A DNA stretch of 64,000 nucleotides, taken from NCBI RefSeq assembly GCF_024700885.2, contig NZ_CP117016.1; one strand, 5' to 3'. Each line of letters opens with the position of its first letter. Positions within the stretch are counted from its first letter, which is position 1. This document shows, piece after piece, positions 8,726 to 15,546 of the stretch. Position numbers and translations under genes: made by a program. The notes beneath the pieces were generated by a model. That model ran no database searches, was not told the origin of the DNA, and worked only from the letters and a program-made list of their open reading frames with translations. Source of the stretch: Escherichia coli. Its GTDB lineage: Bacteria > Pseudomonadota > Gammaproteobacteria > Enterobacterales > Enterobacteriaceae.

Positions 8726-9814
8726 TTACGACCGTACCCTGATGGTGACTGAGGGTCGTTCTTCCGGTGTGCCGAGGAAGCTGGTCCAGCCCAGCAGCGC
8801 ACTTTTGTTATCGCCCAGGCGCATTGCGCCCACCTGCTCCGGCGCCAGCCCCAGATGTAAGTCCCAGGCAAGCTGATCGCGCAGGATGAAGGACACAAAC
8901 ATCGTCAGTGGCAGGAAGTTTTCGCCGGACGGCAGAAAAGAGAGGAACTGTTTTCGGGTCAGGCTGGTAATACTGAGCTGGAATTTTCCGCTGAGATCGG
9001 GCACCCGTGTACCCAGAACAAAGTTGGCCAGTACCGATCTTCCTGCCAGTTTTTCGCCATTTTTAAGTGAATAGCTCCCCAGGCTATTTTGCTGATCCGG
9101 TTCAATATCCACCTTGCGACGTTGCCAGTTTTGCAGCATCACGTCTGACAAATCAAAGCAGTGGGACACCAGACCGCAGATGATTTCCGGGGATCGTCCC
9201 GGATTTGCCAGGATCCCGGAATACGCCAGCATTTTGCTGTGATTAATCGCCAGCTTATCGCGAAGGTGGCGGTGGCCCAGCCCGACAAGGGAGTACATGC
9301 GCTGCGAGAACGCATCCACACCGCCGTTACGAAAACTGATGTGATAGCGGTACTTACGCCAGATATGCCAGACAAACTGGGTCAGGCGGTGGCTGAACAT
9401 ATCCAGAAAATCACCTACCGGACTTTGTTCATGTACCGCTTTCCAGGCCAGGTGATCGAGGTAATAACCGGGGAGAGGCGACTGGCTCCCCTGTAACCCC
9501 ATAAAGGTGGTGGTCATCCTGAATGACCCTGACGTATCCCGTTTCAGCGCACTGATATCACTCAGGGGAAACGCAAGGCTGGCATCGGCGCTGAAACGCA
9601 GGGTTTCCTGTGCCGGATCGTCGCGCAGGGATAATTCCAGCGTCCCCTTTTCACCCTGTGCCAGGCGGTGCAACAGCTCCGCCATGGCAAAAAAATTGTA
9701 AGAGCAGGCGTTATGAAAAACCTGTGCCAGCGGATCATTCTGCTCTTTATCTGCCGGGGGATTTCCCGGACTCAGATAAGAGGATGCTGCCCGGTTCTTT
9801 CCGTCCATTTCCAT
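8726..9814 (-). CDS. tssG: T6SS baseplate protein TssG
   Basis: 362-aa ORF immediately after tssF; its 5' end overlaps the tssF 3' end, so the true start may be an internal Met. Confidence 0.75.
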   Translation of the reverse strand: MEMDGKNRAASSYLSPGNPPADKEQNDPLAQVFHNACSYNFFAMAELLHRLAQGEKGTLELSLRDDPAQETLRFSADASLAFPLSDISALKRDTSGSFRMTTTFMGLQGSQSPLPGYYLDHLAWKAVHEQSPVGDFLDMFSHRLTQFVWHIWRKYRYHISFRNGGVDAFSQRMYSLVGLGHRHLRDKLAINHSKMLAYSGILANPGRSPEIICGLVSHCFDLSDVMLQNWQRRKVDIEPDQQNSLGSYSLKNGEKLAGRSVLANFVLGTRVPDLSGKFQLSITSLTRKQFLSFLPSGENFLPLTMFVSFILRDQLAWDLHLGLAPEQVGAMRLGDNKSALLGWTSFLGTPEERPSVTIRVRS

Positions 9815-12045: not shown

Positions 12046-13521
12046 TTACTCCCTGTCTAACCGGCCAACCAGGGATAGCTCAAAGTTTGCCCCCATAAAT
12101 TTAAAATGGGGCCGCACGCTCAGCGCGACCTGGTACCAGCCGGGTTCGCCTTCCACATCCATAACCTCAACTCTGGCAGCACGCAGAGGCTTGCGGCTGC
12201 GCACGTCCGCAGGCGGGTTTTCCTGGTCGGCAACATACTGACGGATCCAGGTATTAAGCTCCCTCTCTAAGTCGCTCCTTTCTTTCCATGACCCCAGTTG
12301 TTCACGCTGCAACACCTTGATGTAGTGCGCTAACCGATTGATGATGAAGAGATAAGGAAGCTGCGTACCCAACTTATAGTTGGTTTCTGCGTCTTTGCCC
12401 GGAAAGTGCTTCGGTTTTTGTACCGAGTTTGCAGAGAAAAAGGCTGCATTATCAGAGTCTTTACGCATGGTAAGGGTGATAAAACCCTCTTCAGCCAGTT
12501 CAAATTCGCGGCGATCGGTGACCAGCACCTCGGTTGGGATTTTGGCCTGAATCTGACCCATCGTTTCGAACAGATGCACCGGCAGATCTTTCACTGCGCC
12601 GCCGCTTTGCGGACCGATGATATTTGGACACCAGCGGTATTTGGCAAAACTGTCTGCGACATTGCACGCCAGCATCCAGGCCGTATTACCCCACAGATAA
12701 TCTTCGTGGTTCCGGCTGACATCTTCGTGATAGTTAAAGTTCTTAACAGGGTTATCTGTTGGTGAATAAGGCTGGCGAAGCAGGAAGCGGGGTGCCGTAA
12801 GCCCTAAATAGCGCGAATCTTCCGAGTCACGCAGGGCGCGCCATTTGGTGTAGGCCGGACCTTCAAAGATGGCATAAAGATCTTTGATATTAGGCAGTTC
12901 GGTCCACGAGTTCAGCCCCATAAACTCCGGGGAAACGGAGGAGAGGAACGGTGCGTGCGCCATTGCGCCCACAGCACTGACGTATTGCAGCAGTTTCATG
13001 TCAGGAGCGGTATTTTTGAACTCATAAGCGCCCAGCACGGCAGCGATGGGTTCACCACCAAACTGTCCGAATCCGGACGAATAAACGTGTTTATAAAATC
13101 CGGACTGAATAATTTCTGGGGCAAATTCAAAGTCTTCCAGAAGTTCCTGCTTCGTGACATGAAGCACGTTGACCTTGATGTTTTCACGGAAATCAACGCG
13201 ATCCACCATGGTTTTCAGTGAGCGCCAGAACGACTCGACCTGCTGAAAGGCAGGCGCATGGATGATGACATCCATCTGGCGGCTGATGCGTTCATCTATA
13301 TCTGCAATCATGCTGTCCACGGCCAGTTTATTGACCGGTTCGGCAGATGCAGTGGATTGCAGGATGCTGGCAATAAAGGCTGTCACACCCTGGCGGGCAA
13401 CGTCATAACCTTCCGAACCGGGCTGAATACGGGTCTGTGCCATGATTTGATCAAGCAGCGACGACGCCTGATCAGTCTGCCCGGCATGACTGGAAACGAG
13501 TTCCTCTTCCTGTAAAGACAT
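12046..13521 (-). CDS. tssC: T6SS contractile sheath large subunit TssC (VipB)
   Basis: 491 aa; size and sequence match the TssC family; follows tssB. Confidence 0.9.
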   Translation of the reverse strand: MSLQEEELVSSHAGQTDQASSLLDQIMAQTRIQPGSEGYDVARQGVTAFIASILQSTASAEPVNKLAVDSMIADIDERISRQMDVIIHAPAFQQVESFWRSLKTMVDRVDFRENIKVNVLHVTKQELLEDFEFAPEIIQSGFYKHVYSSGFGQFGGEPIAAVLGAYEFKNTAPDMKLLQYVSAVGAMAHAPFLSSVSPEFMGLNSWTELPNIKDLYAIFEGPAYTKWRALRDSEDSRYLGLTAPRFLLRQPYSPTDNPVKNFNYHEDVSRNHEDYLWGNTAWMLACNVADSFAKYRWCPNIIGPQSGGAVKDLPVHLFETMGQIQAKIPTEVLVTDRREFELAEEGFITLTMRKDSDNAAFFSANSVQKPKHFPGKDAETNYKLGTQLPYLFIINRLAHYIKVLQREQLGSWKERSDLERELNTWIRQYVADQENPPADVRSRKPLRAARVEVMDVEGEPGWYQVALSVRPHFKFMGANFELSLVGRLDRE

Positions 13522-13589
13522 ACTGAAAATCCTTCTGTTTTAGCTGTGTTTCTGAAACCGGGTTTTCGCCGTCAGTGAAGTACGCGCCG

Positions 13590-13841
13590 TCAGTACGGCG
13601 CGCTCTGCTGAAACTCACAAAGATGGATAATCTCATCCAATAGATCACTGATACGGCGATCCAGTGTTGTAATCAGCGCATCCACGCCATCCCGGTTGAT
13701 TTCACCGGACGGGCTGAAACATACCCGGTAAACCGCCTGCAAAATGTCTTCGTCAGAGAGGGGGTGTTTCCCGGAGATATTTTTGTGTGCCGCCATGTCT
13801 GGATAACCCTGTTTAATGAAATAGTGGTGGTTATTTCCCAC
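13590..13841 (-). pseudogene. Remnant resembling the 5' end of a divergent tssC allele
   Basis: 83-aa ORF in the unusual ~300 bp tssB-tssC gap. Its C-terminal half (GEINRDGVDALITTLDRRISDLLDEIIHLCEFQQ) aligns with intact TssC residues ~60-95 (PVNKLAVDSMIADIDERISRQMDVIIHAPAFQQ), about 15 of 33 identical by eye. Confidence 0.4.
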
Positions 13842-14331
13842 TCACCTGGCCGATTTCTTTAAGCAACTGCTCGCGGGACTCCTCATTTTCCAGCAATGCC
13901 TGGAGCTGGGTACGGAATGCCGGAAGGTTGCCCATCGGCCCCTTCAGCGCAGTCAGTGCTTCACGCAGTTCCAGCAATTTATTCACTTCCGGAACCTGCC
14001 GGGCCACGCTGTCCGGTGAAAAATCATCCAGTGACTTGATATTCAGCGCCACATTCAGTTCATCGTCCGTTGTGCTTCCCTTCAGCGTGGCGGGGACGGT
14101 AAAATTGAGGCCAATGGCTGCTTCAGCCATTACTGCACCGAAATTGTGCTTGTTAACGGAAACTGCCTGACGTTCATCCAGTGGGGATGTCTCCTGCGTA
14201 TTTCCGGTATCGCCGACAACGAGCATGTTAAGCGGAAGCTCTACTTCAGCCGTCTGGCCGTCCGTCTTCGGGACATAGGATATATTTATACGCTCGCGAG
14301 GCGCGACGCTGCCTTCAAATTTTTTGCTCAT
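13831..14331 (-). CDS. tssB: T6SS contractile sheath small subunit TssB (VipA)
   Basis: 166 aa; N-terminus MSKKFEGSVAPRERINISYVPKTDGQ...LNMLVVGD typical of TssB. Confidence 0.9.
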   Translation of the reverse strand: MSKKFEGSVAPRERINISYVPKTDGQTAEVELPLNMLVVGDTGNTQETSPLDERQAVSVNKHNFGAVMAEAAIGLNFTVPATLKGSTTDDELNVALNIKSLDDFSPDSVARQVPEVNKLLELREALTALKGPMGNLPAFRTQLQALLENEESREQLLKEIGQVSGK

Positions 14332-15027
14332 AAAAGTGATCCGTCATGTTATCTCGTACAGGCCATGAACACGGCATATTTGTACCGCAAAAAAATATCG
14401 GCAATGCCGCCATAATGGCGGTGAAAATAAAATCACCACTCCTTCATCACCCCGCATTCTACGCTTCAAAATAAATAAGAAAAGGACTTTTTATCGATCG
14501 TAAAGAGGGGTATTCTGCAAGCGTTAAATAGATTGTGTGAACCTGTGCAATTCGCGTCAGGTGTATTATGGCAATAATTTAAATATATAGCTTTTATGTA
14601 ACTTATTGAATTATACAATAATTTCATTAAACATAAGCTAATCTGATGATTGCTTGTTTATATATTTGTTTTGTGATTGATTAAGTGGGTATTTTTAAGG
14701 AATATCTCAAAAATTATCAAAATGATAATTCAGAAAGGATAAATACAATATTTATTCATGATTCAGCTTTGGCCATTTTATGGAGGCAATACGGACTTTG
14801 AATAGTTGGGTATGGTTATCCAGATATATATTATTAACTTATTGCTGAATAAGAGATTTAATGATTTTAAAAATAGTTTTTACGACAACCGTAAATTCTA
14901 GCTCGGTTTGTATGTAAAAAATACTGAAAAATGATGCGGTTCCGTGAAGTGAGCTGCATCTGCCTGTCTGGGATTAACGGCAGGTCATTGTAAGTAGTAA
15001 TTAACCACGTTAACAAGGAGTTTACAA
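14332..15027. promoter_or_regulatory. AT-rich divergent control region between the tssB operon and hcp
   Basis: ~700 bp with no convincing ORF, visibly AT-rich, flanked by divergent tssB (minus) and hcp (plus) starts; RBS aaggag precedes the hcp ATG. Confidence 0.45.
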
Positions 15028-15546
15028 ATGCCAACACCGTGTTATATCTCCATCACAGGTCAGACCCAGGGAAATATTACTGCAGGTGCATTTACCGCTG
15101 ATTCTGTCGGCAACATCTATGTGCAGGGGCACGAAGACGAGATGCTGGTGCAGGAATTCCTGCATAACGTTACTGTCCCGACCGATCCTCAGTCCGGCCA
15201 GCCTGCGGGTCAGCGTGCTCACAAGCCGTTCATTTTTACCGTGGCGCTGAACAAAGCTGTTCCGCTGATGTACAACGCACTGGCCTCCGGCGAAATGCTG
15301 CCAACCACTGAACTTCACTGGTGGCGTACCTCTGTGGAAGGCAAACAGGAGCATTATTTCACCACCCGCCTGACCGATTCGACGATTGTCGATATGAAAC
15401 TGCATATGCCGCATTGCCAGGATCCGGCGAAACGCGAGTTCACCCAGTTGCTCGAAGTTTCACTGGCCTACCGCAAAATAGAGTGGGAACACGTCAAGTC
15501 TGGCACCTCCGGTGCCGACGACTGGCGCGCACCGCTGGAAGCATAA
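15028..15546 (+). CDS. hcp: T6SS inner tube protein Hcp (TssD)
   Basis: 172 aa; MPTPCYISITGQTQGNITAGAF... typical of Hcp. Confidence 0.9.
   Translation: MPTPCYISITGQTQGNITAGAFTADSVGNIYVQGHEDEMLVQEFLHNVTVPTDPQSGQPAGQRAHKPFIFTVALNKAVPLMYNALASGEMLPTTELHWWRTSVEGKQEHYFTTRLTDSTIVDMKLHMPHCQDPAKREFTQLLEVSLAYRKIEWEHVKSGTSGADDWRAPLEA

What the first reader, a model, noticed from the sequence alone, without database searches (positions are those of the whole stretch)
13522..13841. Unusual 300-bp tssB-tssC spacer contains a remnant resembling a divergent tssC 5' end
tssB and tssC are normally almost contiguous. Here the gap holds an 83-aa ORF whose C-terminal half aligns with intact TssC residues ~60-95 at roughly 45% identity. 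That is too divergent for a recent duplication. It suggests a past recombination that replaced part of the sheath genes with a different allele and left a stub.
Basis: partly seen in the sequence, partly recalled or inferred. Interest (0 to 1): 0.45.

Follow-up and report, generated by a model that had tools for sequence, protein, structure and literature searches.

The report
Old tssC fragment between sheath genes
The 309-base gap between the two sheath genes of this E. coli type VI secretion cluster holds an ancient partial copy of the start of the large sheath gene. The copy survives as a small reading frame shared with Citrobacter and Salmonella relatives, and it is a modest evolutionary curiosity rather than a new system.

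Summary
On the minus strand, tssB (14331..13831) and tssC (13521..12046) are 309 nt apart, where related loci have about 20-50 nt.

The gap holds an ORF whose residues 29-72 are homologous to TssC residues 59-102:
- BLASTP gives 15/32 identities, E 1e-7.
- A profile-profile comparison gives E 1e-11.

The conserved start is the ATG at 13796, 34 nt after the tssB stop, which is where tssC normally begins.

The insert is old. It sits at the same junction in E. coli, E. albertii, Citrobacter, Salmonella, Atlantibacter, Yokenella and a third subgroup. It is absent from the next relatives (Rahnella, Buttiauxella, Yersinia, Trabulsiella).

A profile of the fragment scores best against the TssC of exactly the clade that carries it. 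tssB and tssC also share the same nearest outgroups. An in-place partial duplication of the resident tssC therefore fits better than replacement by a foreign allele.

The fragment is not simply dead DNA:
- Between subgroups it shows a coding-type substitution pattern in its own frame only.
- Indels are mostly in-frame.
- The frame is open in 10 of 16 loci.

Recent evolution looks near neutral. Three loci are broken and three are truncated. This window's allele carries a TGG-to-TGA nonsense change. No function is shown. Interest is low to moderate.

The parts
13831..14331 (-). tssB (sheath small subunit), 166 aa
   Evidence: ORF. Pfam T6SS_VipA, E 1.1e-51. PGAP annotates tssB in identical genomes.
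13522..13830 (.). 309-nt tssB-tssC spacer
   Evidence: Coordinates. Spacers of 283-316 nt occur in all 16 loci of the same sub-clade. The five outgroups read exactly have 20-38 nt.
13590..13796 (-). Small ORF ('tssC-prime'), 68 codons plus TGA. The ATG lies 34 nt after the tssB stop.
   Evidence: PGAP calls it a hypothetical protein, WP_000718847.1, in PCN033. The ATG is conserved in 15 of 16 loci. Family members are 66-78 aa.
13590..13841 (-).
   Evidence: The 15 extra N-terminal residues are not conserved in the other subgroups.
13593..13712 (-). TssC-homologous core of the small ORF (residues 29-68)
   Evidence: hhalign aligns ORF 29-72 to TssC 59-102, E 1.1e-11. BLASTP gives 15/32 identities. 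AlphaFold2 models residues 35-73 of the restored 74-aa form (first row of A4) as one long helix, mean pLDDT 81.
13572..13592 (-). Cut-off tail: derived TGA (13590-13592, TGG in other alleles), codons RRVLH, and the ancestral stop TGA (13572-13574)
   Evidence: The 74-aa alleles end ...SAPYWRRVLH. Strain C1 differs from the window spacer by this single G-to-A change.
13583..13602 (-). Perfect 8-bp GC-rich hairpin with a 4-nt loop. The nonsense mutation forms the stem pair next to the loop.
   Evidence: Read from the sequence and present in the MFE fold. There is no U-tail and no terminator call.
13522..13571 (-). Strongly conserved leader of tssC, with the Shine-Dalgarno AAGGA at 13530-13534
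   Evidence: Divergence within the Citrobacter-type group is 0.036, against 0.23-0.25 at four-fold sites. The AGAAGGATTTT motif aligns with the outgroup tssB-tssC intergenic sequence.
12046..13521 (-). tssC (sheath large subunit), 491 aa. The parental segment is residues 59-102, at 13216-13347.
   Evidence: Pfam VipB E 1.4e-126 and VipB_2 E 3.3e-45. The N-terminal 130 aa match V. cholerae VipB structures 5mxn and 3j9g.

Best explanation
The spacer is the relic of an ancient in-place partial tandem duplication.

Origin. In an ancestor of one sub-clade of V. cholerae-like (subtype i1, 'E. coli T6SS-2') clusters, the tssB-tssC junction and roughly the first 100 codons of tssC were duplicated. The upstream copy kept the original start position. 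It lost about 25-30 codons from its N-terminal part. It retained the segment equivalent to TssC 59-102, which in solved sheaths forms the domain-3 helix that packs against the TssB C-terminal helix. It ends at a stop about 50 nt before the intact tssC. The intact tssC kept its own ribosome-binding site.

History. For much of its history the copy behaved as a translated small ORF under weak purifying selection.

Present state. In present-day Escherichia it evolves about neutrally. In this window it carries a nonsense mutation six codons before the ancestral stop. It is most likely transcribed as part of the tssB-to-tssM operon and has little or no present function as a protein. The cluster works despite it.

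Status of each step:
- Shown: homology to TssC, distribution across loci, closest similarity to the resident TssC, and the substitution patterns.
- Inferred: tandem duplication as the mechanism, co-transcription, and present dispensability.
For: Homology to TssC 59-102.

Position: the ATG lies 34 nt after the tssB stop, against 20-38 nt in five outgroups.

Distribution: the fragment is present in all 16 loci whose TssC is at least 86% identical to this one (Escherichia, Citrobacter, Salmonella, Atlantibacter, Yokenella and a third subgroup). It is absent from the next relatives at 73-78% identity.

Source: the fragment HMM ranks the 15 fragment-bearing TssC proteins first (42.8-48.1 bits), then Rahnella and Buttiauxella (38-39.5 bits). 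tssB and tssC rank their outgroups concordantly.

Past coding constraint:
- Between subgroup consensus sequences, the ORF frame gives pS 0.62-0.66 against pN 0.34-0.39 (Fisher p 0.0003-0.003).
- The two control frames give p 0.5-1.
- Six indels inside the ORF are in-frame (3, 6, 6, 6, 12 and 30 nt). Three shift the frame, and those are confined to two decayed loci.
- A neutral simulation keeps the start and an open frame in only about 12% of lineages at 0.3 substitutions per site.

Present relaxation:
- The two E. coli haplotypes differ by 3 synonymous and 16 nonsynonymous changes.
- Spacer divergence is 0.089, against 0.047-0.10 at four-fold sites of the flanking genes.
- Within the Citrobacter-type group, variable sites fall 27/25/24 by codon position.
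- The stub region has the lowest identity along the locus between E. coli haplotypes.
- The ORF is broken in E. albertii NBRC 107761, C. youngae and Yokenella. It is truncated in the window, L077 and L078.
- The window allele differs from the strain C1 allele by a single TGG-to-TGA change.

The same cluster type is functional in EHEC EDL933 (PMC5363993).
Against: - The N-terminal 28 residues show no significant similarity to TssC 1-58 (best E about 1). Homology of the whole 5' end is therefore inferred from position only.
- The right-hand duplication junction could not be mapped (shuffle p 0.1-0.97).
- Recombination with a closely related allele would leave the same structure.
- The deep coding signature and frame retention mean the protein may still matter in some hosts.
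- Within the Citrobacter-type and third subgroups, the ORF changes at only about 45-65% of the four-fold-site rate. Pure neutrality does not predict that.
- No expression data were available.
Confidence: 0.62

Rival explanations
1. A genuine, currently functional small protein of 66-78 aa derived from TssC. It would act as a helical mimic of the TssC domain-3 helix. It would bind the TssB C-terminal helix, or ClpV, to chaperone TssB or to tune sheath assembly and recycling.
For: - Coding-type substitution pattern in its own frame only.
- Mostly in-frame indels.
- Conserved ATG and a purine-rich AGGG motif upstream in all three subgroups.
- Frame open in 10 of 16 loci.
- AlphaFold2 gives a confident helix-loop-helix, pLDDT 81.
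- The retained segment aligns with V. cholerae VipB from residue 64 on. By position it corresponds to the TssC1 helix S66-M86, which packs on TssB1 D117-L133 in the P. aeruginosa sheath (PMC5807055).
- The N-terminal part of TssC is sufficient for TssB binding (PMC3840085).
Against: - Broken in 3 of 16 loci and truncated in 3 more.
- pN/pS is about 1.6 between E. coli haplotypes.
- No codon-position bias within the Citrobacter-type group, 27/25/24.
- Leu-to-Pro changes inside the core helix in several intact alleles.
- The SD-like motif lies about 12 nt from the ATG, further than optimal.
- No expression or interaction data, and no mention in the literature searched.
Confidence: 0.2
2. Recombination with a divergent T6SS allele replaced tssC and the downstream genes, and the resident tssC 5' end was left behind as a stub.
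For: - The structure, an old 5' end followed by a complete tssC with its own leader, is what one illegitimate crossover plus one homologous crossover would give.
- Within Escherichia, tssB is about twice as diverged at four-fold sites as tssC. Recombination breakpoints therefore do occur near here.
Against: - The fragment is most similar to the TssC of its own clade.
- tssB and tssC have the same nearest outgroups in the same order, and a steady TssB:TssC divergence ratio.
- The Escherichia mosaicism is far younger than the fragment, which is shared by all three subgroups.
Confidence: 0.12
3. The frame is kept open only as a translated spacer. Ribosomes on it would protect the 300-nt stretch from Rho-dependent polarity, or keep the tssC leader accessible. 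The amino-acid sequence itself would be almost free to change.
For: - The ATG is retained and the frame is open, with in-frame indels, while amino-acid divergence is high (40-47% identity between subgroups).
- C-terminal truncations are tolerated (W, L077, L078).
- The 50 nt before the tssC ATG are strongly conserved.
Against: - Three loci lose the frame early, apparently without loss of the flanking genes.
- The excess of synonymous over nonsynonymous change between subgroups shows some constraint on the amino-acid sequence itself.
- Polarity was not tested.
Confidence: 0.1
4. The spacer is an RNA or DNA regulatory element: an internal promoter, attenuator, processing site or structured RNA. 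On this view the ORF is incidental.
For: - The window RNA folds better than its shuffles (z = -3.0).
- E. coli has a perfect 8-bp GC hairpin at 13583-13602, with compensatory-looking differences between alleles.
- Within subgroups the ORF region changes more slowly than four-fold sites, without codon periodicity.
Against: - No Rfam match at E up to 1.
- No promoter-like or terminator-like site inside the spacer.
- The consensus structure of 15 sequences is weak, -11.8 kcal/mol over 363 columns, with a covariation term of only -1.6.
- The hairpin is restricted to Escherichia.
Confidence: 0.05

Closest known systems
TssC/VipB, the T6SS contractile sheath large subunit (Pfam PF05943 + PF18945; TIGR03355)
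   Same: ORF residues 29-72 are homologous to TssC 59-102. This is the start of the VipB N-terminal domain. By position it corresponds to the domain-3 helix that bundles with the TssB C-terminal helix. The fragment is closest to the TssC encoded 70 nt downstream of it.
   Different: Only about 44 of roughly 490 residues are represented. Scores are 17-18 bits, against cut-offs of 27 and 271.5. There is no beta-sheet core and no gp25-like C-terminal domain, so it cannot be a sheath subunit.
Gene relics left by partial tandem duplication (truncated paralogue next to its parent)
   Same: It lies in the same orientation, directly upstream of the parent, and starts at the parent's original start site. 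It is truncated, has lineage-specific frameshifts and stops, and evolves near neutrally within E. coli.
   Different: It has kept a start codon and an open frame in most lineages across a divergence at which synonymous sites are saturated. It also shows a synonymous excess in its own frame. A dead relic should not do that.
Small T6SS accessory proteins that bind sheath components, such as TagJ/HsiE1, which binds TssB (own knowledge; PMC4239648 appeared in the list but was not read)
   Same: It would be a small helical protein, encoded in the cluster, with a plausible sheath partner. This resemblance applies only under the novel reading.
   Different: There is no sequence relationship to TagJ, no evidence of expression or binding, and patchy conservation.

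Membership tests
TssC/VipB sheath large subunit | Reaches the curated family score (Pfam VipB 27 bits; TIGR03355 271.5 bits) | tested here: not met
   17.1 and 17.9 bits for the 74-aa form. Only profile positions 1-34 of 301 and 44-83 of 473 are covered.
TssC/VipB sheath large subunit | Full architecture: VipB N-terminal domain plus gpW/gp25-like C-terminal domain, about 490 aa | tested here: not met
   The ORF is 68-83 aa. The neighbouring true tssC has both domains.
TssC-derived fragment (paralogous relic) | Statistically significant homology to part of TssC | tested here: met
   hhalign E 1.1e-11 with probability 97.4%. Full-length TssC hits at E about 3e-4 in 1.84 billion proteins. BLASTP E 1e-7.
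TssC-derived fragment (paralogous relic) | Derived from the resident lineage rather than a foreign one | tested here: met
   The fragment HMM ranks all 15 fragment-bearing TssC proteins at ranks 1-15 of 72. tssB and tssC rank outgroups concordantly. This cannot separate a duplication from an exchange with a very close allele.
Tandem duplication | Recognisable duplicated junction: the same upstream sequence before both copies | tested here: inconclusive
   Both copies are preceded by AAACAG..GG..T..CAG..ATG-like strings when read by eye. Local alignments are not better than shuffles, p 0.1-0.97.
Pseudogene (unconstrained relic) | Disabling mutations relative to the family consensus | tested here: met
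   The window has TGG-to-TGA at codon 69. There are frameshifts, stops or start loss in L017, L003 and L005, and truncation in L077 and L078.
Pseudogene (unconstrained relic) | Equal change at synonymous and nonsynonymous sites, and a rate equal to neutral | tested here: inconclusive
   Met within E. coli: 3 synonymous against 16 nonsynonymous changes, divergence 0.089 against 0.047-0.10. Not met between subgroups: pS 0.62-0.66 against pN 0.34-0.39, p 0.0003-0.003, with control frames flat.
Genuine conserved small protein gene | Intact full-length orthologues across genera | tested here: inconclusive
   10 of 16 loci are intact, 3 are truncated and 3 are broken. Intact 70-aa forms occur in Salmonella, Citrobacter and Atlantibacter.
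Genuine conserved small protein gene | Evidence of translation (ribosome-binding site, Ribo-seq, proteomics) | not testable with these tools
   Only a distant AGGG motif about 12 nt before the ATG. No expression data are held. EHEC papers do not list the ORF.
Structured regulatory RNA | Match to a curated family, or a conserved structure with covariation | tested here: not met
   No Rfam match. The RNAalifold consensus is -11.8 kcal/mol over 363 columns, with a covariation term of -1.6.

The most novel reading that the evidence does not exclude
The fragment is a domesticated piece of the sheath protein: a 66-78-aa helical protein that keeps the TssC helix contacting TssB. It would be made just after TssB. 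It would transiently cap or chaperone the TssB C-terminal helix, or compete with TssC or ClpV for it. It would thereby tune sheath assembly in this enterobacterial T6SS sub-clade, and it would be in the course of being lost in some hosts, including this E. coli allele.
Probability: 0.15. Interest if true: 0.6.

Novelty: new member of a known kind. Interest (0 to 1): 0.3.

Why it matters
It explains an odd feature of a widespread E. coli T6SS cluster, found in about 2,270 of 5,426 complete genomes. It also gives a meaning to an ORF that pipelines label 'hypothetical protein': it is a piece of tssC.

The locus is a dated example of a partial duplication whose upstream copy stayed open, and partly constrained, long after synonymous sites saturated. 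That makes it a small natural case study of how a gene fragment drifts between relic and new micro-protein.

Practically, the fragment is a clean synapomorphy for one sub-clade of subtype-i1 clusters. It is also a reminder that the tssB-tssC junction is not always suitable for assumptions about translational coupling or for primer design.

If the peptide does bind TssB or ClpV, it would be a new type of built-in sheath modulator.

Tried and rejected
- **Rfam scan of 13300-15100** at E up to 1: nothing.
- **Promoter and terminator scan:** no site inside the spacer.
- **RNAalifold on 15 spacers:** only weak, scattered pairs. The single-sequence fold z-score of -3 is largely due to an Escherichia-specific hairpin.
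- **Homology of the first 28 residues to TssC 1-58:** not significant. The best alignments do fall in the expected order (MSL..., then L.DE.I.QA on the SLLDEIMAQ motif).
- **Mapping the duplication junction:** I aligned the last 75 nt of the spacer to the tssB 3' end plus left intergenic, and to tssC codons 97-130. Neither was better than shuffles.
- **Foldseek of the AlphaFold2 model against the PDB:** only non-specific helical hairpins, best E 1.4.
- **Counting distinct variants per protein cluster as a population test:** uninformative, because the clusters contain fragments and one is a TssC/TssF mix.
- **Literature:** no paper mentions an ORF between tssB and tssC in this cluster or the protein accession. 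The EHEC gene table skips this part of the cluster.
- **A +1 frameshift fusing TssB to the ORF:** considered and dropped. The upstream frame is closed within the last few tssB codons in E. coli, and no conserved slippery site exists.
- **Gene conversion from tssC as the source of the codon periodicity:** considered and judged unlikely from visual comparison of the alignments. No formal conversion test was run. The subgroups' fragments share derived features, and they do not track their own subgroup's TssC at the sites where TssC differs.

Full report
**What is in the window**

The region is the sheath end of an E. coli type VI secretion cluster, read on the minus strand:
- tssB, 14331..13831
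- a 309-nt spacer, 13830..13522
- tssC, 13521..12046
- tssE and tssF follow tssC

hcp and vgrG run divergently on the plus strand. The 601 bases around the spacer are 100% identical to several complete E. coli genomes. They are found in 2,268 of 5,426 complete genomes at 94-100% identity.

The gene order matches the V. cholerae large cluster. The yafT-side cluster is classed in the literature as subtype i1, 'E. coli T6SS-2' (PMC5422975). The same cluster type is functional in EHEC EDL933 once H-NS repression is lifted (PMC5363993).

**Checking the observation**

The 83-aa ORF exists (13841..13590). It is the maximal ORF from a GTG that overlaps the tssB stop. The start conserved in relatives, and the one PGAP uses, is the ATG at 13796. 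That gives 68 aa in this allele.

Evidence for similarity to TssC:
- BLASTP aligns ORF 48-79 to TssC 63-94, 15/32 identities, E 1e-7.
- A 13-member family alignment against 12 TssC N-termini gives hhalign probability 97.4% and E 1.1e-11. ORF 29-72 aligns to TssC 59-102.
- An exhaustive profile search of 1.84 billion proteins finds the family itself and then full-length TssC proteins at E about 3e-4.
- Pfam VipB and TIGR03355 are the only families touched, below threshold.

In the other roughly 50 loci where both genes were found, the gap between tssB and tssC is mostly 17-136 nt measured from the ends of the tblastn matches. Two outliers are L035 (238 nt) and L054, whose best tssC segment starts late. 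The exact gap is 20-38 nt in five outgroups read by eye.

**Who else has it**

A scan of one genome per species with TssC, plus look-ups of homologues of the small ORF, gave 16 loci with a spacer of 283-316 nt holding the same fragment. They fall into three subgroups:
- Escherichia: two E. coli haplotypes and E. albertii.
- A Citrobacter, Salmonella, Atlantibacter and Yokenella group, with a 70-aa form.
- A third group of unnamed hosts, with 66-78-aa forms.

All have TssC at least 86% identical to this one.

The next relatives have the ordinary short junction and no fragment. These are Rahnella, Buttiauxella, Yersinia nurmii, Trabulsiella and others, with TssC 73-78% identical. The spacers align collinearly through both ends, so the insert arose once.

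It is old. Four-fold degenerate sites of tssB and tssC differ by 44-59% between subgroups, and NG86 pS is 0.6-0.8, which is saturated.

**Where it came from**

The fragment's ATG lies 34 nt after the tssB stop. That is where tssC starts in the outgroups.

A profile of the fragment was scored against the N-termini of 72 TssC proteins:
- The 15 fragment-bearing loci take ranks 1-15 (42.8-48.1 bits).
- The nearest outgroups follow (38-39.5 bits).
- Scores then decline steadily.

TssB and TssC also rank the outgroups in the same order, and TssB is consistently the less conserved of the two. The parent was therefore the resident tssC lineage.

The simplest event is a tandem duplication of the junction plus about the first 100 codons of tssC, followed by loss of some 25-30 codons from the N-terminal part of the upstream copy.

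Two things remain unproven:
- The first 28 residues are not significantly similar to TssC 1-58.
- The right-hand junction could not be mapped.

An exchange with a very close allele cannot be told apart from a duplication.

**Is it a gene or a corpse**

Evidence that it behaved as a gene:
- Between subgroup consensus sequences, the ORF frame has pS 0.62-0.66 against pN 0.34-0.39 (Fisher p 0.0003-0.003). The two other frames of the same DNA show no difference (p 0.5-1).
- Six indels inside the ORF are multiples of three. The three that are not lie in two obviously decayed loci.
- A substitution-only neutral simulation keeps the start and an open frame in about 12% of lineages at 0.3 substitutions per site. 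All three deep lineages kept them.

Evidence that recent evolution is close to neutral:
- The two E. coli haplotypes differ by 3 synonymous and 16 nonsynonymous changes. Spacer divergence (0.089) equals that of four-fold sites in the flanks (0.047-0.10). The stub region has the lowest identity along the locus between them.
- In the Citrobacter-type group, variable sites fall 27/25/24 by codon position, and several intact alleles carry Leu-to-Pro changes in the core helix.
- The frame is broken in E. albertii NBRC 107761 (start lost, two frameshifts, an 18-nt deletion), in C. youngae (in-frame TGA) and in Yokenella (frameshift and TAG). It is shortened in L077, L078 and this window.
- The window allele differs from the 74-aa allele of strain C1 by one base, TGG to TGA at codon 69.

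My reading is a relic that was a weakly selected translated ORF for a long time and is now decaying, at least in Escherichia.

**How it most likely works now**

No promoter-like or terminator-like site and no Rfam family lie in the spacer. Consensus RNA structure is weak. I infer read-through transcription from tssB into tssC.

tssC has its own Shine-Dalgarno (AAGGA, 13530-13534) inside a 50-nt leader. That leader is far more conserved than neutral: 0.036 against 0.23-0.25 within the Citrobacter-type group. tssC translation therefore does not depend on the fragment's sequence.

The fragment may still be translated at a low level from its ATG. If so, the product would be a helix-loop-helix (AlphaFold2 pLDDT 81, helices 15-26 and 35-73, modelled on the restored 74-aa form). 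Its long helix is the counterpart of the first ordered helix of VipB. By position it also corresponds to the TssC1 helix S66-M86, which bundles with TssB1 D117-L133 in the P. aeruginosa sheath (PMC5807055). This is the basis of the speculative TssB-binding reading. Nothing here tests it.

**Comparison with what is known**

- It is not a TssC. It covers under a tenth of the protein and fails both curated thresholds.
- It is a TssC-derived fragment.
- It is not a typical dead pseudogene either, because of the deep coding signature.
- PGAP already annotates it as a hypothetical protein. I found no paper that mentions it or its origin.

I file it as a new member of a known kind: a partial-duplication relic or young small ORF.

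**Limits**

- The sample is 16 loci, and codon counts are small (about 70 codons).
- Pairwise comparisons are not independent, so I used subgroup consensus sequences for the tests.
- Four-fold sites may mutate faster than average sites. The 45-65% relative rate within two subgroups may therefore overstate the constraint.
- The hosts of the third subgroup are unknown.
- L002 is labelled a Citrobacter MAG, but its spacer differs from that of E. coli O157:H7 at only two positions.

Noticed in passing
window 13583-13602 (minus strand): A perfect 8-bp GC-rich hairpin, CGCGCCGU-ACUG-ACGGCGCG. The nonsense mutation of this allele (TGG to TGA, 13590-13592) turns a U.G pair into U-A at the stem pair next to the loop. 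The O157:H7-type haplotype has 6 Watson-Crick pairs, one G.U and one mismatch at the same place. Three of its four differences from the window in this 21-nt stretch weaken the pairing, and the fourth swaps the pair next to the loop from U-A to C-G. This could reflect quasi-palindrome template switching or selection for a stem. There is no U-tail.
   Followed up: partly
window 13522-13571: The 50 nt before the tssC start are much more conserved than neutral sites: 0.036 against about 0.24 within the Citrobacter-type group, and 0.21-0.32 against 0.44-0.59 between subgroups. That is more than a Shine-Dalgarno alone would need.
   Followed up: partly
window 12046-14331 compared with L017 and L002: Within Escherichia, tssB is about twice as diverged at four-fold sites as tssC: 0.51 against 0.27 versus E. 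albertii, and 0.10 against 0.047 between E. coli haplotypes. This suggests a recombination boundary near the spacer that is much younger than the fragment.
   Followed up: partly
window 14332-15027 (hcp-tssB divergent intergenic): This is the least conserved stretch against E. albertii, at 49-74% identity per 150 nt, where the flanking genes are 82-91%. It is presumably the divergent promoter region. EHEC work reports H-NS repression of this cluster.
   Followed up: no
proteins P0049, P0025, P0055 (public assemblies): These are chimeric ORFs created by deletions in this locus. P0049 fuses fragment codons 1-26 to the last ~74 residues of TssC. P0025 and P0055 fuse a 5' part of tssB to the fragment. 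They are natural decay variants of the cluster.
   Followed up: no
window 8726-9814 compared with L001 9616-11409: Strain PCN033, which is identical to the window in the spacer, has IS200C inserted in tssG and a frameshifted vgrG. The window has an intact 362-aa tssG ORF. The window therefore comes from a different strain, one with a less damaged cluster.
   Followed up: no
L003-L005, L070-L077 spacers: In the Citrobacter-type group the fragment's frame continues into tssC in the same frame, separated by only two stop codons (…FH*Q*NLAPEIQINTRIFSMSLQEE). In E. coli the two are out of frame. This is probably without meaning.
   Followed up: no
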